Below, piece by piece: positions 19,599 to 49,316 of a stretch of DNA of 51,468 bases. The first letter of the stretch is position 1, and each line of letters opens with the position of its first letter. The notes beneath the pieces were generated by a model that was given only the letters and a program-made list of their open reading frames with translations, ran no database searches and had not been told where the DNA came from. Position numbers and translations under genes: made by a program. Origin of the DNA: Escherichia phage phiE31-2; the sequence record PP988008.1. One strand, given 5' to 3'.

Positions 19599-20004
19599 TA
19601 AAGGCGATTATCTAGAGTTTTACGAAAGAGATCCGACGGATACGCTAAAAGAGGAATCACACCAGATCGGGGCGTTTCAATGGTTGACTTATGCTTACCC
19701 TGAATTACTGGCATGGCATACGAAAAACGAGGGCGACAAGGGAATCGCCACCGCAATGATGGATCAGCAAGCTGGACTCGTTAAGGGAGTAAGTGATTTT
19801 ATCATCCTGATTGGATTAAAAGGCCGTTACCCGTTCGCGGCTATTGAGATGAAACGCGTCAATAAGTCTGGCAAGGGTAAGGCTTCACCAGTCAGCAAGG
19901 AGCAAAAAGCCTTCTTGCGCCGTGTGCGTGAACTTGGCGGATTCTCTGCCGTAACATACGGATATAAGCAATTCATGATCGCTGTAGAATACATGATGAA
20001 ATAG
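19585..20004 (+). CDS. VRR-NUC domain nuclease
   Basis: 139 aa; D..(AIEMK) PD-(D/E)XK core; overlaps helicase stop. Confidence 0.65.
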   Translation: MAMTDKGDYLEFYERDPTDTLKEESHQIGAFQWLTYAYPELLAWHTKNEGDKGIATAMMDQQAGLVKGVSDFIILIGLKGRYPFAAIEMKRVNKSGKGKASPVSKEQKAFLRRVRELGGFSAVTYGYKQFMIAVEYMMK

Positions 20005-20044
20005 CACTTTTTGTTAAAACAGGCGCGAAGGATTGCGCCATAAT
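20002..20044 (+). promoter_or_regulatory. conserved-motif promoter-like element (upstream of dam)
   Basis: TAGCACTTTTTGTTAAAAC - 18 nt containing GGCGC/GCGCC inverted repeat - CATAAT; TAG is stop of upstream gene. Confidence 0.55.
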
Positions 20045-20784: not shown

Positions 20785-21024
20785 ATGCAAAAAGAAAGAA
20801 GCGTTTATTTAAATGAAACTGGAGAATGGTTGTTATTTCGCGCTATGGTTTGCGATGCGCTTGATAAAAACGATTTCATAAAACCGCTATTATGTTGCGA
20901 TCCGTGGGAGTTTACAAGCGCGCTTGACATGAGCTTTGAGGAAACAAGAAAGCTACCGCTTGAAAAATGGCATGAGCAGATCTGTAAAGACTTGCAAGAG
21001 TTTTACGAATCCGCGTCAAAATAG
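20785..21024 (+). CDS. hypothetical protein
   Basis: 79 aa from ATG after ACGGAG RBS; stop TAG embedded in conserved motif. Confidence 0.5.
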   Translation: MQKERSVYLNETGEWLLFRAMVCDALDKNDFIKPLLCCDPWEFTSALDMSFEETRKLPLEKWHEQICKDLQEFYESASK

Positions 21025-21064
21025 CACTTTTTGTTAAAACGCCCGGCCTTGTGTCGGGCATAAT
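21022..21064 (+). promoter_or_regulatory. conserved-motif promoter-like element
   Basis: Identical 19-mer - 18 nt (GCCCG/CGGGC inverted repeat) - CATAAT. Confidence 0.55.
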
Positions 21065-24241: not shown

Positions 24242-24284
24242 AATATACCCGATACGAGATCGGGAGTTTTAACAAAAAGTGCTA
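24242..24284 (-). promoter_or_regulatory. conserved-motif promoter-like element
   Basis: Minus strand TAGCACTTTTTGTTAAAAC - 18 nt - TATATT upstream of 23987..24208. Confidence 0.55.
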
Positions 24285-24476
24285 TTCAATACGCTTTACA
24301 GTAACCAACAAAACGCCGTCCTCATCACACAAATTATGCTCTGATATATCAAACGCTCGCATGTCAGAATGAATGAGCGTTAACATTGCGTGCATGAAGT
24401 CGTCATGTGAGATTGAACTTACGGCGCAGAACTTCAATATTTTGTCTATTAGCATTTGACGTAAACAATTCTTCAT
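24282..24476 (-). CDS. hypothetical protein (start uncertain; overlaps upstream ORF)
   Basis: 64 aa ORF; stop TAG embedded in conserved motif; overlaps 3' end of 24403..24795 in another frame. Confidence 0.3.
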   Translation of the reverse strand: MKNCLRQMLIDKILKFCAVSSISHDDFMHAMLTLIHSDMRAFDISEHNLCDEDGVLLVTVKRIE

Positions 24477-27084: not shown

Positions 27085-27127
27085 ATTATGCCAGGCTTTT
27101 ACACCTGGCTTTTAACAAAAAGTGCTA
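27085..27127 (-). promoter_or_regulatory. conserved-motif promoter-like element
   Basis: Minus strand TAGCACTTTTTGTTAAAAG - 18 nt (GCCAGG/CCTGGC hairpin) - CATAAT. Confidence 0.55.
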
Positions 27128-27835
27128 TTTTGCGTTAGCTTCAAAGACGGCGCGAGCAAAACCTCGCGGAGTGAGGGAGCGGATCATCTTTGTGCGAGAT
27201 GATTTTCCGCCAGTTTTGGCCCAACCAGGATTATCCTTGTCATCCTCTTTAGGAAGGATTGTTGCGCGCGGAGGAATAACAAATCCGTTTCCAGTCCAAA
27301 GGCATGTTTTCTTAAAGTACCGATCGCGCGCAGGAATAATATCAGGAAAGTCGGGATGTTTATCATCTTCCGGCAGATAGCCAGCATAATCGCACGGATG
27401 GAACGTATAATCAGGCTTGCGCCATAACGTTGACAGCTTTCCTACAGGATTCTCTATCATGTACGGAACACCGAAATAATCAGCGATATGCGCCGCAATT
27501 TTGCAAGTGTCGGCGGCTTCATCCTGGAAAGCTGGATTCTCAAGGCGTTTTTTGGTCCAATGGCGAGATCCGCTATTCGCAAGGTCAGTGCACGGCGGAA
27601 ATGCCATAATGAAATCAGGCTTGCCCCAATTTTCAAGTTTTGCGGTATATTTGAATAGCTCATCAATCCACACATTAACGTAAAAAATATTATCATGGAT
27701 TATGCGCACTGATTGGTAATCTCCGTGATCGGCATCATCGTAATTAAAGCAAATGCATTTATATCCAGCATCAGCCCAATCTTTAACGGCCTTACCAGAT
27801 CCATCAAACAAAGAGAAAATTAAACCTTTATACAT
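27125..27835 (-). CDS. compact DNA (cytosine-5)-methyltransferase-like protein
   Basis: 236 aa; C5-MTase-like motifs in canonical order and spacing: I FDGSG (aa 10-14), IV FPPCT (79-83), VI ENP (128-130), VIII PARDR (168-172), IX-like RSLTPRGFARA (219-229); only ~45 aa where a target-recognition domain would be; no motif X. Confidence 0.55.
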   Translation of the reverse strand: MYKGLIFSLFDGSGKAVKDWADAGYKCICFNYDDADHGDYQSVRIIHDNIFYVNVWIDELFKYTAKLENWGKPDFIMAFPPCTDLANSGSRHWTKKRLENPAFQDEAADTCKIAAHIADYFGVPYMIENPVGKLSTLWRKPDYTFHPCDYAGYLPEDDKHPDFPDIIPARDRYFKKTCLWTGNGFVIPPRATILPKEDDKDNPGWAKTGGKSSRTKMIRSLTPRGFARAVFEANAK

Positions 27836-29135: not shown

Positions 29136-29178
29136 AATATACCAATCAGAGGCGCATCGGTTTTAACAAAAAGTGCTA
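29136..29178 (-). promoter_or_regulatory. conserved-motif promoter-like element
   Basis: Minus strand TAGCACTTTTTGTTAAAAC - 18 nt - TATATT, the hexamer sitting in the loop of a GATGCGC/GCGCATC hairpin. Confidence 0.5.
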
Positions 29179-29179
29179 T

Positions 29180-30012: not shown

Positions 30013-30055
30013 AATATACCAGGTTATTCCGATCGTGTTTTAACAAAAAGTGCTA
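30013..30055 (-). promoter_or_regulatory. conserved-motif promoter-like element
   Basis: Minus strand TAGCACTTTTTGTTAAAAC - 18 nt - TATATT upstream of 29702..29974. Confidence 0.55.
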
Positions 30056-30269
30056 TTTGCTGACTGGTTATTATTCCATCTATTCCATTAATCAGGAATA
30101 ACAGGAATAAATCATTCGCGATCACCTGGATTGTGAGACTTTGAGTTTGATCAATTTTAATCAGTTGATTAACTTTTTGTGTGGAGGGGATAGAGAAACG
30201 CGGTCCTCTTGCGTCCTTTCCGGCAATCCTGGCGCGCGCATCTGTTATTTCTGTTCCCTGTGTTATCAC
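30024..30269 (-). CDS. possible first leftward early protein
   Basis: GTG start 7 nt after GGAGG; ~81 aa; 3' end reads through the promoter-like motif of the next gene. Confidence 0.3.
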   Translation of the reverse strand: MITQGTEITDARARIAGKDARGPRFSIPSTQKVNQLIKIDQTQSLTIQVIANDLFLLFLINGIDGIITSQQIALFVKTRSE

Positions 30270-31181: not shown

Positions 31182-31441
31182 TGAATAAGGCATTAATTGG
31201 AGTTTTGATTGCAATTGCTACCCTGACCGGATGCGAAAAGGCATCGGAATCAACAGTTGTCGTAGGAGTGGAGTCAGATTTTAAAGTCGGTCGCCTGTTT
31301 ACTGTTGATGGATGCACTGCGTACCGATTCTATGACAACGGTCGAGCAATCTATTACACCAATTGTAATGGCGCAACGGATAGCACATACCGCAGCGGCA
31401 AAAACGTAATGCACCAGCAAGTCACAACAGATATGAAATAG
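31181..31441 (+). CDS. early lipoprotein
   Basis: 86 aa; signal peptide with lipobox LTGC; TAATG overlap with upstream gene. Confidence 0.65.
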   Translation: MNKALIGVLIAIATLTGCEKASESTVVVGVESDFKVGRLFTVDGCTAYRFYDNGRAIYYTNCNGATDSTYRSGKNVMHQQVTTDMK

Positions 31442-31481
31442 CACTTTTTGTTAAAACGCCAGGTGCAAATCCTGGCATAAT
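31439..31481 (+). promoter_or_regulatory. conserved-motif promoter-like element
   Basis: TAGCACTTTTTGTTAAAAC - 18 nt (GCCAGG/CCTGGC) - CATAAT; TAG is stop of lipoprotein gene. Confidence 0.55.
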
Positions 31482-31900: not shown

Positions 31901-31901
31901 A

Positions 31902-31944
31902 TAGCACTTTTTGTTAAAACTCAAAAACGATAACCAGGCATAAT
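31902..31944 (+). promoter_or_regulatory. conserved-motif promoter-like element
   Basis: Same 19-mer - 18 nt - CATAAT, followed by GGGCG/CGCCC hairpin in the leader. Confidence 0.55.
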
Positions 31945-34473: not shown

Positions 34474-35064
34474 ATGAAACGAGACATTATCATCCTTAAC
34501 GGACCGCCAGGAGTTGGCAAAGATACGCTTGCCGCATACTTAACGGGCCATCGTTACGCAGCGGTTAAAGCGTCGTTTAAACAGCCTATGTTCGATATTG
34601 CATTCTCCATGCTTGGCGTTTACAGATATGACGAGTTCATTGATCTGTATAACGACCGCGAGCAGAAAGAAAAGCCTCAAGCAATCTTGCAAGGTAAGTC
34701 TCCGCGACAATTCATGATCTGGATTAGTGAAGAAGTCATGAAGCCAGCTTTTGGCGAGCAATATTTTGGAAATCGCATGGTTGAGCAAGTACACGAGATG
34801 TACAGGGATTTAGCTGTTGTAATTAGTGATGGCGGATTCCCTGAAGAAATAAAGCCTCTCGTTAAGGCAGGCCATGAAGTTCACATTTGCCGACTGCATC
34901 GCGAAGGTTTCACGTTTGATGGAGATTCGAGAAACTATATTGACCTGAGCGGATACCATCACCGAGTCAAGCATTACGACTTCACAATGACTGATGGCGA
35001 TCCAGAAAAGACTGTTGACGAGATCATCAAAACGGTCCAGTGGAAACACATTAAGATCAAATAG
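34474..35064 (+). CDS. P-loop nucleotide kinase (T4 gp1-like dNMP kinase)
   Basis: Walker A LNGPPGVGKDT near N-terminus; ~196 aa; AAGGAGA RBS. Confidence 0.65.
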   Translation: MKRDIIILNGPPGVGKDTLAAYLTGHRYAAVKASFKQPMFDIAFSMLGVYRYDEFIDLYNDREQKEKPQAILQGKSPRQFMIWISEEVMKPAFGEQYFGNRMVEQVHEMYRDLAVVISDGGFPEEIKPLVKAGHEVHICRLHREGFTFDGDSRNYIDLSGYHHRVKHYDFTMTDGDPEKTVDEIIKTVQWKHIKIK

Positions 35065-35104
35065 CACGAATTGCTAAAAGAGGGGCGCAATGCCTCGCTA
35101 TAAT
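35062..35104 (+). promoter_or_regulatory. conserved-motif promoter-like element (variant)
   Basis: TAGCACGAATTGCTAAAAG - 18 nt - TATAAT. Confidence 0.5.
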
Positions 35105-36118: not shown

Positions 36119-36406
36119 ATGGCTAAAAGCAATCGCAAAATGTTGATTAACGCATTCGAAAAGGCAGCGCGTGAGCGTGGTTGGAATGACTCATTCCACA
36201 CAGCAAACTGTATCCGCCGTTACGGATTCAAGAATTGCCGATCATGGGCGCGTGAAATGGCTTCATGGTATGATCTTGATGCGCATTACCTTGATATGGA
36301 TTGCGCCCTGGTTGAAATGATTGAGCAGGCAGCATTAGAGGATCGACCATTAACGCAATCTGATTTTGACGATTTTGTGCGCGATGAAATTTATTATATG
36401 AGCTAA
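36119..36406 (+). CDS. hypothetical protein
   Basis: 95 aa with AAAGGAGG RBS. Confidence 0.5.
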   Translation: MAKSNRKMLINAFEKAARERGWNDSFHTANCIRRYGFKNCRSWAREMASWYDLDAHYLDMDCALVEMIEQAALEDRPLTQSDFDDFVRDEIYYMS

Positions 36407-36449
36407 TAGCACTTTTTGTTAAAACTTCCGCGAGGGCATTTGTTAAAGT
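36407..36449 (+). promoter_or_regulatory. conserved-motif promoter-like element
   Basis: TAGCACTTTTTGTTAAAAC - 18 nt - TAAAGT. Confidence 0.45.
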
Positions 36450-37336: not shown

Positions 37337-37465
37337 ATGGATAGCTACATAAAACCGTCGCAATGGTGCGCACAGAAGCAAGAGGAAGCATTAGAGCGCG
37401 GCGATACTGAAACAGCAATGCACTATTTCGAAATGTACAACTTGTGGAAGGGTAGAGGTCTGTAA
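37337..37465 (+). CDS. hypothetical small protein
   Basis: 42-aa ORF with AAGGTGA RBS; stop overlaps next ATG (TAATG). Confidence 0.35.
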   Translation: MDSYIKPSQWCAQKQEEALERGDTETAMHYFEMYNLWKGRGL

Positions 37466-37695
37466 TGTTTGGAATGAATGAGGCGCAATTCAACGCTGCA
37501 AAACGCCAGGCTAAGAAGTGCGGCGAGGCAATGAAGGCGGATGTTGAAAAGCGCGGGAAGTATGTTGATGAAGTTATGAAGGGCATTATTGCCGAACATT
37601 ATCAGCCAGTTGCGCCAATGCTGACAATTACCCAATTCATCTGGTTGTGTGGTTATCTTCGTGGGAGATGGGGAAACGCATTTGACCGCGAATGA
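37465..37695 (+). CDS. hypothetical protein
   Basis: 76 aa ORF. Confidence 0.5.
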   Translation: MFGMNEAQFNAAKRQAKKCGEAMKADVEKRGKYVDEVMKGIIAEHYQPVAPMLTITQFIWLCGYLRGRWGNAFDRE

Positions 37696-37724
37696 TTGAC
37701 AACGATTTCCTGATTGGTTAGCAT
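37696..37724 (+). promoter_or_regulatory. sigma70-like promoter
   Basis: TTGACA - 17 nt - TAGCAT; followed ~60 nt later by hairpin and T-run. Confidence 0.45.
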
Positions 37725-37787
37725 ATTCAACGTTTACATAAGAGCGGCATTAGTGCCGAACGGGTGGCGCGGTTGCCACGCAACAAC

Positions 37788-37830
37788 GGCGATATGCAGG
37801 TTTTTACCGTAAGACGTATCGCCTTTTTTA
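37788..37830 (+). terminator. hairpin plus T-run immediately upstream of gene 37842
   Basis: GGCGATA...TATCGCC stem followed by TTTTTTAT. Confidence 0.45.
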
Positions 37831-37841
37831 TAGGTGAATAT

Positions 37842-38075
37842 ATGGAAAAGTACAAATTAACTTTCATGTTTAATAGCATGGTGATGAATCCCTTAAATGG
37901 TTACGCTTGCAATAGCTTTTCTGTTACCGTTAATGAGGATGAAATTGATGATGATGGCAAATTCATTCGAATTGGTGAATACTTGTACCCCGTGCACAAT
38001 ATCAATTGCATCAAACGCGAGATCGTAAAAGATGAAGTACAAGGTAAGGTTGACGATCAGGCGAATGGGGCGTAA
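37842..38075 (+). CDS. hypothetical protein
   Basis: 77 aa from ATG with AGGTGA RBS, after a promoter-hairpin-terminator leader. Confidence 0.5.
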   Translation: MEKYKLTFMFNSMVMNPLNGYACNSFSVTVNEDEIDDDGKFIRIGEYLYPVHNINCIKREIVKDEVQGKVDDQANGA

Positions 38076-38213
38076 TTGCTCGTCATGTAGACAAAGTTTT
38101 GAATGTGAGGTTGAAGCGTGCGGAGAGCTTGAGGCGGCAGCAATAGCAAAAGAGTTGTCCGGCGCTAATCAAGACACTCACCAGTTTTCAATAGATCTTG
38201 TAAGGAAAATGTC

Positions 38214-38453
38214 ATGAGTTCTGTAATTATTGGTTTGGTTGCTTTAATCATTGGTGTTCTAATCGGCTTTGTTGCTGTATCTTTCGTGGTGGCTGTTGGT
38301 GTTCGCTATAAGTCAAAAAAAGGTGAATTTGCTTTAGCGTTTTGGGATGAAGATCAGAAAGTTTGGCAGGTTCGCGGTCACTACTTATCAATCGGTGGCA
38401 GGATTCACAGCACTATGAAGACAAATCCAGAAAAAGTAAAATACAAGTATTGA
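38214..38453 (+). CDS. small membrane protein
   Basis: 79 aa with N-terminal TM helix (VIIGLVALIIGVLIGFVAVSFVVAV). Confidence 0.5.
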   Translation: MSSVIIGLVALIIGVLIGFVAVSFVVAVGVRYKSKKGEFALAFWDEDQKVWQVRGHYLSIGGRIHSTMKTNPEKVKYKY

Positions 38454-38460
38454 ACAACTA

Positions 38461-38483
38461 CCCGCCAAATGGCGGGTTTTTTA
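38461..38483 (+). terminator. rho-independent terminator at end of rightward early region
   Basis: CCCGCC-AAAT-GGCGGG then TTTTTT; a perfect TATAAT lies ~15 nt downstream. Confidence 0.65.
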
Positions 38484-38533
38484 TTGCCTGCAATTTGTCT
38501 ATAATGATGCTTTGTTATAAAGGAGGGCGCATT

Positions 38534-39055
38534 ATGGCTAAAAACGTTGAGCCAGCAGTAAAGGCTTGCAATTTTAAAAAACTATATAATAAGCAATATG
38601 GCGATATAGCAAAAATGACAAAGGCGCACAAGTACACGCCGGAGCAGGTATTTGATCTGGCTGTTCGTTACTTTACGTGGGCTGAGGAAAACCATATACA
38701 GGCTGCGGAAACGGCATCCTTTCAGGGTGACGTATACGAAAGCAAGATTCACAAGCCGCGCGTGTTCACCTTAAACGGATTCCGATTATTCGCTGGCCTT
38801 TCTGCTTCCGTGCTTGAAAAATGGCGACGTGAGCCAGGATTCAGCGAGGTTATGGACTTTATCGACGGCGTTGTTTACGAGCAAAAATTCCAGCTTGCCG
38901 CAAACAATATTGTTAACGCCGGATTCATTGGTAAGGAGATCGGCATTGAAAAGCCAGCCACCGTTACCATTGAGAATAACACAAGCGCCAGCGTTGACGC
39001 TGTAACGGCGGAGGAAGTCAAAGAGGCGGTAATTGACATTCTGGAGAAGATATAA
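38534..39055 (+). CDS. terminase small subunit
   Basis: 173 aa from ATG with AAAGGAGGG RBS immediately upstream of and overlapping (TAATG) the large terminase gene. Confidence 0.6.
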   Translation: MAKNVEPAVKACNFKKLYNKQYGDIAKMTKAHKYTPEQVFDLAVRYFTWAEENHIQAAETASFQGDVYESKIHKPRVFTLNGFRLFAGLSASVLEKWRREPGFSEVMDFIDGVVYEQKFQLAANNIVNAGFIGKEIGIEKPATVTIENNTSASVDAVTAEEVKEAVIDILEKI

Positions 39056-40623
39056 TGCTTATTTGGGAAGACTTAACAGCGGCGCAAAAACGCGCCGTTA
39101 AGGAAATGAGCGAATATTCATTCGAAAAGATGATCCGCATTTGGTTTCAACTTCTCCAGGGGCAAAGGTTCTTAGGAAACTGGCATTTCAGTTACCTATG
39201 CAGCGAAGTTGAAAAAATAATCAAAGGCGAGTCACAGAACGTAATTTTCAACATAACGCCAGGCAGTGGTAAAACAGAGATATTCTCGATCCACATGTCA
39301 CCTTATGCGTCATTGAAAAGTAAGAAGGTGAGAAATCTTAATTTGTCGTTTAGTGATGGCCTTGTCCAGCAGAATAGCAACCGCATCAAAGAGATTATTG
39401 GTTCTCCAGAATGGCAGGAGCTATGGCCTGGAAAGTTGGCAAAGGCGAGCGCAAAGGATCTGATTGTAACCGATGGCGGCAAGGTTAAATTGCAAGTTAA
39501 CTCGCGTTCTATCGGTGGTCAGGTTACTGGTCTGCGTGGCGGCTACATGGACGATGGATTTACTGGTATGCTGGTTCTTGACGATCCAGACAAGCCGGAT
39601 GATATGCTTTCTAAGGTGAAGCGCGAAGCCGGACACATGCGCCTAAAGAACACGGTGCGATCGCGTCGAATGAAGGACACCACGCCAATTGTGATGGTTC
39701 AGCAACGTCTACACGTCAATGATTCAACATGGTTCATGACAAACGGCGGCATGGGCGGCATCCAGTTTAAGGTGGTTAGTATTCCGGCGCTCGTTACTAA
39801 GGAATATCGCGAAACGCTTCCTGACTGGTTAAAGCCTGAGTTTGATCGCGATGTTTTGTCCAGTAAGCCAGTGATGATTGATGGTGTTGCCCATTATTCG
39901 TTCTGGCCTGCTAAGGAAAGCGCGGAGGAATTACTTGCACTTCGAAATGCTGATCCGTACACGTTCGCTAGTCAGTATCAGCAACAGCCTGTTGCGCTTG
40001 GCGGTAACGTGTTTAAAACAGAGTGGTTCCAGTATTACGGCAGCAGCGAGAAATGCACGCTACCAAAACCGGATCGCTTTGAATATACATTTATCACGGT
40101 TGATACCGCGCAGAAAACAGGTGAGCTTAACGACTACTCCGTGATCTGTTATTGGGGGATGTATAAAGATCGTGTCTACTTCATTGATGGCGTTCGCGGA
40201 AAATGGGAAGCACCGGACCTTGAGACGAATTTTGTTGCATTCGTTAATCAGTGCTGGAAGCGCAATAAAGAATGCGGAACGTTGAGAAGGATTCATGTTG
40301 AAGATAAATCGTCTGGCACTGGTTTGATTCAGAGTGCAGCGAAAAGAATCATGATCAAGATCAATCCCGTTCAGCGCGATAAAGATAAGGTTACGCGAGC
40401 AATGGACGCAGCGCCAGTAATGCGCGCCGGACGCGTAGCACTTCCAGAATCACATCCTATGCTGGCTGAGATACTTGCAGAGGTTGCGGCTTTTGCTTAT
40501 GATGATTCAGCGCCACACGATGATATTGTTGATAACATCATTGATGCGGTTAACATTGAAATGAACATGGCAGATGATCCGGTTGGAAGAATGAAAAAAT
40601 TGGCAGGTTTGCGGAACAAATAG
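39055..40623 (+). CDS. terminase large subunit
   Basis: 522 aa; Walker A-like NITPGSGKTE; C-terminal RNaseH-like nuclease acidic motifs (VDTAQ..., DDSAPHDDIVD). Confidence 0.85.
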   Translation: MLIWEDLTAAQKRAVKEMSEYSFEKMIRIWFQLLQGQRFLGNWHFSYLCSEVEKIIKGESQNVIFNITPGSGKTEIFSIHMSPYASLKSKKVRNLNLSFSDGLVQQNSNRIKEIIGSPEWQELWPGKLAKASAKDLIVTDGGKVKLQVNSRSIGGQVTGLRGGYMDDGFTGMLVLDDPDKPDDMLSKVKREAGHMRLKNTVRSRRMKDTTPIVMVQQRLHVNDSTWFMTNGGMGGIQFKVVSIPALVTKEYRETLPDWLKPEFDRDVLSSKPVMIDGVAHYSFWPAKESAEELLALRNADPYTFASQYQQQPVALGGNVFKTEWFQYYGSSEKCTLPKPDRFEYTFITVDTAQKTGELNDYSVICYWGMYKDRVYFIDGVRGKWEAPDLETNFVAFVNQCWKRNKECGTLRRIHVEDKSSGTGLIQSAAKRIMIKINPVQRDKDKVTRAMDAAPVMRAGRVALPESHPMLAEILAEVAAFAYDDSAPHDDIVDNIIDAVNIEMNMADDPVGRMKKLAGLRNK

Positions 40624-40653
40624 CACGAATCGACAAACCAATATATAATCAAA

Positions 40654-40677
40654 GGCTGGAAAATCCAGCCTTTTTTA
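40654..40677 (+). terminator. terminator-like hairpin between terminase and portal
   Basis: GGCTGGA-AAA-TCCAGCC then TTTTTT. Confidence 0.55.
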
Positions 40678-44384: not shown

Positions 44385-44407
44385 GGCGCTCACTGAGCGC
44401 CTTTTTT
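44385..44407 (+). terminator. terminator-like hairpin within head gene cluster
   Basis: GGCGCTC-ACT-GAGCGCC then TTTTTT. Confidence 0.55.
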
Positions 44408-45927: not shown

Positions 45928-45956
45928 GGGGAATCCTTAACTGGATTCCCTTTTTA
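45928..45956 (+). terminator. rho-independent terminator after major capsid gene
   Basis: GGGAATCC-loop-GGATTCCC then TTTTT. Confidence 0.6.
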
Positions 45957-48984: not shown

Positions 48985-49295
48985 AAAGGGCGGTTTACCT
49001 GTTTTATCAGAAACCGCCGACAGATGCAGAGCTTGAGGCCGTTGGCCTTACAAGGGCAGACTATGAAGGAGAAGATCCGCCAGAGGTTATATTTGATGAA
49101 AGCATGATGCAATCATGGGATATATTTTGCGCAATGCAAACGCAATGGAGATGTTATGGCGGTGGCGCTTACGGATTTGATTATAATGTCTTGCCTATGC
49201 TTTTTGAGATTTACAAGGTTGAGGATCGCGAGATGGCGCTAAACGACTTGCGAATCATGGAGCAAAAAGCACTTGAAATGATGCATTCAAAATAA
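48667..49295 (+). CDS. tail assembly chaperone frameshift product (gpGT-like; -1 shift at 48975..48981)
   Basis: -1 frame after A_AAA_AAC stays open to stop at 49293-49295 and merges with ORF 49104..49295. Confidence 0.6.
48975..48981 (+). other. -1 programmed ribosomal frameshift slippery heptamer A_AAA_AAC
   Basis: X_XXY_YYZ heptamer 3 nt before gpG stop; -1 frame open for 104 further codons. Confidence 0.65.
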
Positions 49296-49316
49296 GCGCC
49301 TACGGGCGCTTTTTTA
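49295..49316 (+). terminator. terminator-like hairpin between GT and tape measure
   Basis: AGCGCC-TACG-GGCGCT then TTTTTT. Confidence 0.55.

What the first reader, a model, noticed from the sequence alone, without database searches (positions are those of the whole stretch)
37696..37841. Promoter - structured leader - terminator unit that may encode a small RNA or attenuator
A near-consensus promoter (TTGACA-17-TAGCAT, 37696-37724) is followed by about 95 nt with two hairpins (GTGGC/GCCAC near 37762-37780 and GGCGATA/TATCGCC at 37788-37822) and a T-run (37823-37830) that abuts the RBS of gene 37842. Transcripts from this promoter should largely stop before the gene, giving a ~100-nt RNA unless antiterminated. 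No ORF with an RBS occupies the interval.
Basis: partly seen in the sequence, partly recalled or inferred. Interest (0 to 1): 0.55.

Follow-up and report, generated by a model that had tools for sequence, protein, structure and literature searches.

The report
Conserved structured leader RNA of T1-like phages
The flagged stretch is the start of a transcription unit found in essentially all T1-like (Drexlerviridae) phages: a strong host-type promoter followed by a ~100-base RNA with three evolutionarily maintained hairpins. In this phage the last hairpin also acts as a stop signal; the RNA is in no RNA family library, and its function is still unknown.

Summary

**What is there.** The window is a Hanrivervirus, 99% identical to E. 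coli phage KarlJaspers/Bas06.
- Promoter: TTGACA-17-TAGCAT at 37696-37724.
- RNA start: predicted at 37731/2.
- RNA body: a 14-nt unpaired leader (CGUUUACAUAAGAG) and three hairpins (37745-58, 37764-79, 37788-823).
- End: U6 at 37824-29, 2 nt before the RBS of gene 37842.

**Why it is real.**
- It is one copy per genome.
- It recurs at the same position in every Drexlerviridae lineage examined, T1 included: after the T1p59 homologue and before two core small genes and the terminase.
- The stems covary strongly: 98% of cells paired, 7 of 9 core pairs with double changes, ten compensated versions of the hairpin-3 stem.
- Wobble pairs mark the + strand.
- There is no Rfam match and no description in the searched literature.

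**What is not conserved.** The U-tract is strong here but weak or absent in other genera. The conserved function therefore lies in the RNA, not in termination.

**Most likely reading (about 0.45).** A cis-acting, factor-bound leader that works as an attenuator in this phage.

**Rivals.** A trans-acting sRNA, a put/nut-like antitermination RNA, or a riboswitch.

It is a new RNA family of a known kind and of moderate interest.

The parts
37465..37695 (+). Upstream gene, 76 aa. It is the homologue of T1 gp59 (phrog_303, function unknown). Its stop codon TGA overlaps the -35 region.
   Evidence: tblastn finds it in 834 phage records. It always lies just upstream of the element, with one extra gene in between in Tunavirus.
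37696..37701 (+). -35 hexamer TTGACA
   Evidence: It is TTGACN in all 59 distinct versions.
37710..37717 (+). Conserved spacer motif CTGATTGG. Its 3' end supplies the G at -14 (a partial extended -10). In Tlsvirus the same motif gives a canonical TGG+TAGATT.
   Evidence: Relatives have CTGACCGG or CTGAGCGG.
37719..37724 (+). -10 hexamer TAGCAT
   Evidence: It is TAnnnT in all versions, with 12 different hexamers and a 17-nt spacer in 57 of 59.
37731..37744 (+). Predicted RNA 5' end (37731/37732) and the unpaired conserved leader CGUUUACAUAAGAG
   Evidence: The 6 nt between the -10 and this motif vary in sequence but not in length. The covariance model match starts at 37731.
37745..37758 (+). 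Hairpin 1 (CGGCA-UUAG-UGCCG)
   Evidence: Three of its four pairs show double compensatory changes across 31 distinct sequences.
37759..37763 (+). Conserved linker AACGG (family consensus AACGCG, counting the first stem base)
37764..37779 (+). Hairpin 2 (GUGGC-GCGGUU-GCCAC). The loop consensus is RCGRUW.
   Evidence: All cells are paired and four of five pairs show double changes.
37780..37787 (+). Linker GCAACAAC
37788..37823 (+). Hairpin 3. The lower stem is GGCGAUAUG/CGUAUCGCC. The apical part carries the conserved motif CCGUAAGA (37807-37814). In this phage it is the stem of an intrinsic terminator.
   Evidence: -15.2 kcal/mol, z -3.65. Ten distinct compensated stem versions, all paired. 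The CCGUAA motif is also in the last hairpin of Tlsvirus, Tunavirus and T1.
37824..37829 (+). U-tract (T6) of the terminator. The expected RNA 3' end is about 37826-37830.
   Evidence: Its length varies from T4 to T8 in related genera and it is absent in others.
37832..38075 (+). RBS AGGTGA (37832-37) and the first downstream gene (ATG 37842, 77 aa). This is variable cargo.
   Evidence: It is replaced by a different gene in A16a/JakobBernoulli and by tRNA genes in other phages.
38032..38217 (+). Core gene phrog_2919 (61 aa), the conserved cargo of the unit
   Evidence: 797 phage records. The AF2 model has pLDDT 89.9 and a beta-beta-alpha-beta fold. The closest folds are eL20 and PurS.
38214..38453 (+). 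Core gene DUF7299, a small membrane protein (79 aa)
38460..38483 (+). Strong intrinsic terminator that ends the unit
38500..38505 (+). TATAAT of the separate promoter for the terminase operon (extended -10 type in relatives). It is not part of the unit and marks its boundary.

Best explanation
The interval is the 5' end of a transcription unit that is a core feature of Drexlerviridae.

What the sequence predicts:
- Host sigma70 RNA polymerase starts at 37731/2 from a promoter that depends on its -35 element.
- The first ~100 nt form a non-coding leader RNA: a 14-nt unpaired 5' motif followed by three hairpins.
- The stems of these hairpins drift by compensatory changes.
- The unpaired parts stay fixed: the 5' motif, the AACGCG linker, the RCGRUW loop and the CCGUAAG motif.

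Inferred function: that conservation pattern fits an RNA recognised as a folded object by a factor, either a phage or host protein or RNA polymerase itself. It does not fit a simple base-pairing RNA.

Inferred mechanism in this phage:
- The last hairpin is followed by U6, so it should terminate most transcripts, both from this promoter and from the operon upstream.
- This releases a ~95-100-nt RNA.
- Only read-through polymerases would express the three small genes 37842-38453, whose last two (38032-38453) are the core genes.
- The unit therefore works as a cis-acting leader/attenuator that sets the level of the downstream genes.
- The factor would modulate read-through here. In relatives without a U-tract it would act on translation or mRNA stability at the hairpin placed 8-10 nt before the RBS.

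Shown: the promoter anatomy, the RNA structure, the strand, the single-copy status, the synteny and the lineage-variable U-tract.

Inferred: the transcription start, termination in vivo, the existence of a factor and the cis mode of action.
For: - Identity of the phage and location of the element.
- Structure.
- Covariation in the core (31 distinct sequences): 98.1% of cells paired, 7 of 9 pairs with double changes, score 0.78 against 0.26 in shuffles (0 of 500 reach it) and at most 0.15 when the partners are slid.
- Hairpin 3: ten compensated stem versions.
- Strand: 25 G.U cells against 2 A.C cells on the + strand.
- Promoter geometry is invariant, and the conserved RNA begins at the canonical start distance.
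- Copy number: one per genome (66.5 bits, next best 6.3). There is one hit per locus, on the + strand, in all 44 hits from non-Webervirus loci and in T1.
- Conserved order: T1p59 homologue, promoter, leader, variable cargo, phrog_2919, DUF7299, terminator, own promoter of TerS.
- The U-tract varies or is absent while hairpin 3 and its CCGUAA motif persist. This argues that the hairpin has a role other than termination.
- The invariant positions in the 5' motif are interspersed (G2 T3 A6 C7 A10 A13) and do not form a contiguous seed.
- The element always lies 2-15 nt before an RBS or a tRNA gene, so it is a 5' leader.
Against: - No partner factor was identified. The flanking proteins have no informative family.
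- The fold of phrog_2919 is generic.
- No alternative terminator/antiterminator pairing is visible, and none covaries.
- There is no conserved complementarity between the leader and the downstream translation start.
- The first downstream gene is interchangeable and is sometimes a tRNA cluster. This fits poorly with gene-specific translational control.
- No transcript data exist for any T1-like phage in the searched literature.
Confidence: 0.45

Rival explanations
1. A trans-acting small RNA. The ~98-nt terminated transcript is the functional product. It acts on host or phage mRNAs by base pairing through its unpaired 5' end, or it titrates a host protein. The downstream genes merely use leak-through.
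For: - The promoter is near consensus, and a solid terminator directly follows three hairpins.
- The conserved RNA starts at the first transcribed base, with an unpaired 5' stretch as in sRNAs that carry a 5' seed.
- In A16a/JakobBernoulli, similarity ends right after the U-tract while the downstream gene is swapped. The RNA therefore behaves as a module of its own.
- Hanrivervirus, Warwickvirus, Henuseptimavirus and many Weberviruses keep a U-tract.
Against: - The U-tract is weak (UUUU, UUAUUUUC) or absent in several genera, T1 and TLS included. There the RNA runs into an RBS or into tRNAs.
- Invariant leader positions are interspersed, not a contiguous seed.
- Many other unpaired positions are conserved too, which is unusual for a base-pairing sRNA.
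- There is no complementary site in the phage genome: CTCTTATGT with up to 1 mismatch occurs 3 times against 10.4 expected, and one of the three is the element itself.
- Host targets could not be screened. The BLAST search of E. coli genomes found nothing but cannot detect short pairings.
Confidence: 0.25
2. A processive antitermination signal. The nascent leader, alone as with HK022 put or with a phage/Nus factor as with lambda nut, stays bound to the polymerase that made it. That polymerase then reads through hairpin 3, the terminator at 38460 and further terminators.
For: - It is a promoter-proximal series of short hairpins with conserved loops and linkers, single copy, coupled to one promoter at a fixed distance.
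- It is followed by intrinsic terminators at 37788-37829 and 38460-83.
- The cargo downstream is interchangeable and includes tRNA clusters, as expected for a device acting on transcription and not on a particular gene.
- The late region carries many terminators on the coding strand (and the TLS table).
Against: - The terminase/late operon has its own promoter immediately after the 38460 terminator in every lineage inspected, so read-through from this unit is not required.
- The terminator hairpin is itself a conserved part of the RNA, which is odd for a signal meant to defeat it.
- There is no boxA on the transcribed strand.
- There is no similarity to anything in HK022, put sites included.
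- No N-like or Q-like protein family was detected near it.
Confidence: 0.15
3. A riboswitch-like sensor. The conserved unpaired nucleotides form a ligand pocket, and the variable 3' part is the expression platform (a terminator here, an RBS-proximal hairpin elsewhere).
For: - Stems are variable while unpaired positions are conserved.
- The 3' output varies between lineages.
- The element is constantly associated with the phrog_2919 and DUF7299 genes.
Against: - The architecture is a string of independent hairpins, with no enclosing helix, junction or detectable pseudoknot.
- No alternative pairing links the 'aptamer' to the terminator or the RBS (and inspection).
- There is no Rfam match.
- Cargo genes and tRNAs are inserted between it and the core genes.
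Confidence: 0.05
4. Nothing RNA-specific: an ordinary promoter that happens to lie next to the terminator of the upstream operon, or a small protein-coding gene.
For: - Promoter-like and terminator-like matches are no more frequent than in shuffled sequence.
- A 35-aa CDS is annotated here in one relative.
Against: - Compensatory changes occur in all three stems.
- Wobble pairs are strand-specific.
- Frame-breaking indels occur in relatives.
- The element is conserved from T1 to Webervirus while neighbouring genes diverge to 33-57% protein identity.
Confidence: 0.03

Closest known systems
Lambda PR' - 6S RNA - tR' unit (Q-dependent late promoter)
   Same: A strong constitutive sigma70 promoter is followed within ~100-200 nt by an intrinsic terminator. 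A short RNA is the default product, and downstream genes need read-through. It is single copy and lies next to the packaging/late genes.
   Different: - In lambda the signal is DNA (the Q-binding element) plus a sigma-dependent pause, and the RNA between promoter and terminator is not structurally conserved. Here the RNA structure is what is conserved.
- No Q-family protein was found.
- The initial transcribed motif lacks the T at the last position of a -10-like element.
- The late operon here has its own promoter.
HK022 put RNA (factor-independent antiterminator RNA)
   Same: A promoter-proximal nascent RNA made of stem-loops with conserved unpaired nucleotides, followed by terminators. The phage has no RNA polymerase of its own.
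   Different: - There is no sequence or profile similarity.
- put has two long stems with a triple helix and occurs twice per genome (PMC9378689). This element has three or more short hairpins, occurs once, and one of its own hairpins is the terminator.
- Activity on RNA polymerase is untested.
Lambda/P22/mEp021 nut sites (boxA + boxB)
   Same: A short hairpin with a conserved loop, preceded by a conserved linear motif, lies in an early leader.
   Different: - There is no boxA on the transcribed strand. CGCTCTTA occurs only on the opposite strand, at 37745-37738, and is not conserved in the family.
- No arginine-rich N-like partner was identified.
- It is single copy.
Protein-dependent leader attenuators and operators (for example PyrR, TRAP and BglG-type leaders, and ribosomal-protein and ThrRS operators)
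   Same: A structured 5' leader whose conserved loops would be read by a protein. The output is a terminator in some lineages and an RBS-proximal hairpin in others.
   Different: No alternative antiterminator/terminator pairing is visible, no partner is known, and the first regulated gene is interchangeable.
Phage small RNAs encoded beside tRNA genes or leaders (T4 species 1/2 'band C/D' RNAs, lambda OOP)
   Same: Small, stable-looking structured phage transcripts of ~75-140 nt, some next to tRNA genes, with function long unknown. This comparison rests on my own knowledge.
   Different: There is no sequence relationship. The present RNA is tied to its own promoter and to a fixed genomic slot across a whole phage family.

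Membership tests
Any Rfam family (release 15) | Covariance-model score at or above the family's gathering threshold | tested here: not met
   There are no hits at gathering thresholds in the whole window. Only chance-level hits (E of 0.8 or more) appear in 37400-38100 and 37725-37835.
Intrinsic (Rho-independent) terminator | A GC-rich stem directly followed by a run of at least 5-6 U | tested here: met
   A 9-bp stem at 37788-96/37815-23, -15.2 kcal/mol, with U6 at 37824-29. The inner part is atypically large at 18 nt, so the simple scan did not list it.
Intrinsic (Rho-independent) terminator | Termination in vivo or in vitro | not testable with these tools
   This needs Term-seq, a Northern blot or single-round transcription.
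Sigma70 promoter | -35 and -10 hexamers at 16-18-nt spacing, conserved among relatives, with conservation of the transcript starting at +1 | tested here: met
   The -35 is TTGACN in 59 of 59 versions, the spacer is 17 nt in 57 of 59, the -10 is TAnnnT in 59 of 59, and the leader begins 5-6 nt after the -10.
Structured non-coding RNA (conserved secondary structure) | Compensatory base changes beyond controls, with strand-specific wobble pairs | tested here: met
HK022 put RNA | Sequence/structure similarity to putL or putR | tested here: not met
   Model R1 finds nothing in the complete HK022 genome (best 4.9 bits). The architecture also differs (PMC9378689).
HK022 put RNA | Factor-independent suppression of pausing and termination by the nascent RNA bound to the RNAP beta' zinc-binding domain | not testable with these tools
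   This requires in vitro transcription.
Lambda Q / PR' late unit | A Q-family antiterminator gene next to the promoter | tested here: not met
   Pfam and PHROGs scans of the flanking ORFs give no antiterminator family.
Lambda Q / PR' late unit | A -10-like pause element in the initial transcribed region | tested here: inconclusive
   The conserved ACAUAAGAG contains CATAAG and TAAGAG. These have the A at position 2 but lack the T at position 6.
Lambda Q / PR' late unit | Late genes depend on read-through of the terminator | tested here: not met
   A separate promoter (TATAAT 38500-05, TGnTATAAT in relatives) lies between the unit's final terminator and TerS.
N/nut antitermination | boxA (CGCUCUUA-like) upstream of the boxB hairpin on the transcript | tested here: not met
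   There is no boxA on the + strand. The match lies on the - strand only and is not conserved.
Hfq-type base-pairing sRNA | A contiguous conserved seed and a conserved terminator with a long U-tail | tested here: not met
   The invariant leader positions are interspersed. The U-tract is absent or weak in several genera.
Hfq-type base-pairing sRNA | Identified mRNA targets or chaperone binding | not testable with these tools
   No phage-internal target was found. The host transcriptome was not available for a pairing search.
Riboswitch | A ligand-binding fold (junction or pseudoknot) coupled to mutually exclusive pairings with the expression platform | tested here: not met
   Only independent hairpins are predicted. 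No competing pairing with the terminator or the RBS was found.

The most novel reading that the evidence does not exclude
The leader is a new class of promoter-coupled regulatory RNA used by a whole family of virulent phages. Two readings remain open. In one, it is an RNA that rides on host RNA polymerase and changes its elongation or termination behaviour: functionally like HK022 put, but unrelated to it and present in about 800 sequenced Drexlerviridae, T1 included. In the other, it is a ribonucleoprotein made at the very start of infection for host takeover or anti-defence.
Probability: 0.15. Interest if true: 0.8.

Novelty: new member of a known kind. Interest (0 to 1): 0.5.

Why it matters
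- T1 is one of the classical coliphages, and its relatives (Drexlerviridae) are among the most often isolated E. coli, Shigella and Klebsiella phages. Many are therapy candidates.
- Their transcription programme is essentially unmapped. They have no phage RNA polymerase or sigma factor, and only a handful of promoters have been predicted.
- This element is a conserved, single-copy, promoter-linked structured RNA that sits in a core position of every genome examined and has gone unannotated.
- It gives an experimentally tractable handle on how these phages regulate a core early/pre-packaging operon.
- It adds a well-supported family to the small catalogue of structured RNAs from virulent phages.
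- It marks a slot where phages insert cargo (small genes, tRNAs), which is useful for phage engineering.
- If it turned out to act on RNA polymerase, it would be only the second kind of antiterminator RNA of that type.

Tried and rejected
1. Rfam at gathering and at permissive thresholds: nothing.
2. Late-operon antitermination argument. I first reasoned that terminase transcription must read through the 38460 terminator. Reading the sequence in six lineages showed a conserved promoter right after that terminator, so the argument was dropped.
3. boxA. CGCTCTTA exists only on the non-transcribed strand and is not conserved. Rejected.
4. RfaH ops-like element. GGCGGTA occurs in the Webervirus leader only and is not family-wide. 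Rejected.
5. Shine-Dalgarno mimic in the leader (GAGG). It is absent in this phage (GAGC), and the G is part of hairpin 1. Rejected.
6. Leader pairing with the downstream translation start. Duplex energies are no better than shuffles in 85 sequences.
7. Leader pairing with the U-tract (seen in the MFE). It is not conserved in lineages without a U-tract.
8. Hairpin-2 loop (GCGAUA) pairing with the 3' arm of hairpin 3 as an antiterminator. It does not covary when the hairpin-3 stem changes.
9. K-turn in hairpin 3. The non-bulged strand has CA/CU where GA is required.
10. Conserved UAA of CCGUAAG as the stop of a leader peptide. It is in frame only in Hanrivervirus and Warwickvirus. The SD plus mini-ORF is confined to the Warwickvirus/JLBYU09 insertion.
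11. Phage-internal sRNA target: none.
12. Copies in bacteria. The E. coli genome BLAST was empty. The pattern scan of 185,579 species genomes gave one chance hit inside a coding sequence.
13. Origin of replication. GC skew follows gene orientation only.
14. Partner protein.
    - Pfam, PHROGs and PDB profile searches of the flanking proteins were uninformative.
15. Literature. No transcript map or RNA description was found for T1-like phages. The TLS re-annotation does not list this promoter.
Full report
**Where the window comes from.** The region 37400-38100 is 99% identical to Escherichia phage KarlJaspers (Bas06; Drexlerviridae, Tempevirinae, Hanrivervirus) and 93-98% identical to other Hanriverviruses. 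The finding lies in the 146-nt gap between two unannotated small genes, bas06_0086 (37465-37695) and bas06_0087 (37842-38075). This is about 700 nt upstream of the terminase genes (TerS from 38534, TerL 39055-40623).

| Feature | Coordinates |
|---|---|
| -35 TTGACA | 37696-701 |
| Spacer | 17 nt |
| -10 TAGCAT | 37719-24 |
| Hairpin GUGGC/GCCAC | 37764-79 |
| Long hairpin, lower stem GGCGAUAUG/CGUAUCGCC | 37788-96 / 37815-23 |
| T6 | 37824-29 |
| RBS AGGTGA | 37832-37 |
| ATG | 37842 |

- All three hairpins are in the MFE and centroid folds of the + strand (-33.6 kcal/mol, z -2.4).
- Hairpin 3 alone gives -15.2 kcal/mol, z -3.65.
- The reverse strand folds no better than shuffles.
- Taken alone, a 10/12 promoter match is not unusual. 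The scan found 13 promoter-like sites in 10 kb against 16.6 expected.
- The terminator scan did not list hairpin 3 because its inner part is longer than 8 nt. The case therefore rests on comparison across phages.

**Conservation.**
- blastn with the 156-nt interval finds it in 129 phage records.
- In some records (A16a, JakobBernoulli) similarity stops right after the T-run, and a different gene follows.
- The upstream 76-aa protein is the homologue of T1 gp59 and occurs in 834 phage records.
- I fetched the region downstream of that gene from annotated phages and from 80 IMG/VR contigs. Every lineage examined has the same arrangement.
- The arrangement is: a TTGACN -35, a 17-nt spacer, a TAnnnT -10, and 5-6 variable bases. 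Then comes the motif CGUnnACAUAAGAG, a first hairpin, the linker AACGCG, and a second hairpin with loop RCGRUW.
- In most lineages a last hairpin follows, carrying CCGUAA in its loop or on its 3' side.
- Over 59 distinct promoter-plus-leader versions the geometry is nearly invariant.
- The segment between the -10 and the motif varies in sequence but not in length. The conserved RNA therefore begins at the canonical start position, predicted as 37731/2.

**Structure is selected, and on the + strand.**
- On 31 distinct core sequences, 98.1% of cells are paired and 7 of 9 pairs show changes on both sides (82 cells).
- The covariation score is 0.78 against 0.26 +/- 0.03 in column shuffles (0 of 500 reach it), and at most 0.15 when the partners are slid by 1-3 columns.
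- Hairpin 2 uses at least eight different 4-bp stems.
- The 9-bp lower stem of hairpin 3 occurs in ten versions: eight are fully paired and two have a terminal U.U mismatch. Examples are GGCGAUAUG/CGUAUCGCC, AGCGCCGCG/CGCGGCGUU and GGUGAUGUG/CGCAUCACU.
- G.U pairs on the + strand number 25 cells. A.C cells, which would be G.U on the other strand, number 2. The functional molecule is therefore + strand RNA, not a DNA cruciform or an antisense transcript.
- Indels of 1-2 nt in the loops, and a 17-18-nt insertion at the apex of hairpin 3, break any reading frame.

**Copy number and range.**
- A covariance model of the core (R1) hits the window once, at 37731-37786 (66.5 bits). The next best hit scores 6.3 bits.
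- It gives 44 hits of 49-68 bits in non-Webervirus Drexlerviridae loci, one per locus and all on the + strand. The divergent L081 and the truncated L051 gave no hit.
- It hits T1 itself at NC_005833 7623-7678 (51.8 bits), in the unannotated gap between ST58 and ST57.
- Weberviruses carry a shortened version (leader, one hairpin, and a GC-rich hairpin with UUUUAUU or AUUUAC) that the model detects only weakly.
- Nothing similar is in Rfam 15, in 5,426 E. coli genomes or in HK022.
- A specific pattern scan of one genome per bacterial species gave a single chance match inside a coding sequence.
- The literature searches found no description. The recent re-annotation of TLS lists three promoters and 18 direct repeats, but not this promoter.

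**Genomic logic.**
- The unit is always: T1p59 homologue, promoter, leader RNA, a variable slot, phrog_2919 (61 aa), a small membrane protein (DUF7299), a strong terminator, then TerS.
- phrog_2919 is present in 797 phage records, nearly the same set as the T1p59 homologue.
- The variable slot holds unrelated small ORFs, nothing at all, six tRNA genes (L081) or a tRNA-Ser (L108).
- I first suspected that the unit was the late promoter and that the leader served to read through the 38460 terminator.
- Reading the sequence showed a separate promoter directly behind that terminator in all six lineages inspected: TATAAT at 38500-05 here, and TGnTATAAT in relatives. That argument fails.
- The genome is built of modules with their own promoters. 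About 19 copies of ATAGCACnnnTTGnTAAAA turn out to be promoter cassettes with an extended -10 and a shared short 5' UTR.
- Against that background this promoter is singular. It is the only conserved promoter identified here with a consensus -35 and without the ATAGCAC element, and the only one followed by a long structured leader.

**What the terminator tells us.**
- Here, and in Warwickvirus and Henuseptimavirus, hairpin 3 is followed by 4-8 U.
- In Tlsvirus (TLS, Sazh), Tunavirus (T1, Shfl1), Kyungwonvirus and other groups the last hairpin keeps its CCGUAA motif but is followed by AACCAUUCAGGAG or similar. This is the RBS of the next gene, with no U-tract.
- Termination is therefore a lineage-specific addition to a hairpin that has another, conserved role.
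- The unpaired parts of the RNA are conserved at interspersed positions (G2 T3 A6 C7 A10 A13 of the 5' motif, AACGCG, the CG of the hairpin-2 loop, CCGUAAG), while the stems vary freely.
- This is the signature of an RNA recognised as a folded object by a protein or by RNA polymerase. It is not the signature of a base-pairing seed.

**Most likely mechanism, about 0.45.** I conclude that the element is a cis-acting leader.
- In this phage the default outcome is termination at 37826-30, producing a ~98-nt RNA.
- Read-through sets the expression of 37842-38453.
- The postulated factor would tune this attenuation.
- These steps are inferred. No transcript data exist, and no partner was found.

**What the flanking proteins show.**
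- The flanking proteins have no informative family.
- phrog_2919 models confidently (pLDDT 89.9) as a small beta-beta-alpha-beta domain.
- This is compatible with RNA or polymerase binding but is not evidence for it.

**Rivals.**
- A trans-acting sRNA (0.25) fits this phage's anatomy, and the module boundary falls after the U-tract. It does not fit the lineages without a terminator or the non-contiguous conservation of the 5' motif. No phage-internal target exists, and host targets could not be screened.
- A put- or nut-like antitermination RNA (0.15) fits the promoter coupling, the hairpin series and the interchangeable cargo. However, the late operon does not need it, there is no boxA and no similarity to put, and the terminator hairpin is part of the conserved RNA.
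- A riboswitch (0.05) lacks a junction and competing pairings.
- 'Just a promoter next to a terminator' or a small ORF (0.03) is contradicted by the covariation.

**Verdict.** The element is a previously undescribed, family-wide structured leader RNA of T1-like phages. It is a new family of a known kind (structured 5' leader, attenuator or sRNA), its mechanism is still open, and it is directly testable in available phages.

Noticed in passing
Window, for example 20001-20019, 21021-21039, 31438-31456, 31901-31919, 35061-35079, 36406-36424 (+), and 24267-24285, 27110-27128, 29161-29179, 30038-30056 (-): - About 19 copies of ATAGCACnnnTTGnTAAAA occur: 23 matches with up to 3 mismatches against 2.8 expected.
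- Each is followed 14-15 nt later by (T)GG plus TATAAT or CATAAT.
- Each is also followed by a shared 5' UTR, CAUCGAAACGA..GAGGA..AUG.
- They look like promoter cassettes: an upstream ATAGCAC element, a weak -35 TTGTTA and an extended -10.
- The TLS paper records them only as 21-nt direct repeats of unknown role.
   Followed up: partly
Window 38460-38536: - The strong terminator (ACCCGCC-AAAT-GGCGGGT plus T6) is followed at once by TATAAT (38500-05), 28 nt before the TerS start.
- In CS01, tonnikala, Sin4 and Shfl1 the same spot reads TGnTATAAT, TGnTATACT or TGnTAAAAT (an extended -10). Sazh has TATAAT preceded by AGC rather than TGn.
- The terminase operon therefore has its own promoter, overlapping the terminator tail.
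   Followed up: partly
L010/L012/L014/L016 (Warwickvirus) and L007 (JLBYU09), apex of hairpin 3: A 17-18-nt insertion forms its own hairpin. It reads AGGAGG, 8 nt, then ATG CAA AAT AAT CCG TAA: a perfect RBS with a 5-codon mini-ORF ending in the conserved CCGUAAG motif. The start is TTG in tonnikala and is lost (ACG) in SECphi27.
   Followed up: partly
L081 1607-2254; L108 1802-1889: In some relatives the slot between the leader RNA and the phrog_2919 gene holds tRNA genes: six in L081 and tRNA-Ser in L108. In others it holds unrelated small ORFs or nothing. The slot is a cargo-insertion hotspot.
   Followed up: yes
Window 38032-38217: - phrog_2919 is a Drexlerviridae core protein, present in 797 phage records.
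- It has a conserved MGxxCxxC motif.
- AF2 predicts a beta-beta-alpha-beta domain with pLDDT 89.9.
- A PDB profile search weakly hits HMA copper-binding domains.
   Followed up: partly
Window, whole: TGATTGG, the motif in the promoter spacer, occurs 20 times on both strands against 9.2 +/- 3.2 in shuffles. One copy is the spacer of a repeat-type promoter (ctgattggTATATT, promoter at 29161). The cause of the excess was not examined.
   Followed up: no
Window 40651-40673, 44385-44401, 49294-49311: Perfect bidirectional terminator hairpins (U-tracts on both strands) lie inside the late region, on the coding strand. Together with terminators at 45928, 48572, 896 and 6687, they divide the structural genes into short modules.
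   Followed up: no
Window 37465-37695; phage records JQ072023 (mEp021), SFP17, JLBYU41: The T1p59 homologue is 47% identical to an ORF on the mEp021 fragment. That similarity is probably the source of the label 'inducer of pleiotropic effects' on one of the ORFs under the 37400-38100 match in SFP17 and JLBYU41. Which ORF carries the label was not checked. No domain was recognised. A PDB profile search gives only a weak eS25 (winged-helix) hit, E 0.05.
   Followed up: partly
Records MG065636 and others ('Campylobacter phage' A16a, A143, and so on): Twenty UNVERIFIED 'Campylobacter jejuni phage' records are classified as Hanrivervirus (A16a checked) and are 92-96% identical to this window across the element (12 of the 20 were listed). 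The host label is probably wrong.
   Followed up: no
Window 37736-37744, - strand: The complement of the leader motif, CTCTTATGT, is rarer in the genome than expected: 3 sites with up to 1 mismatch against 10.4 +/- 3.2. One of the three is the element itself. The - strand of 37738-37745 also reads CGCTCTTA, identical to lambda boxA, but this is not conserved in relatives.
   Followed up: partly
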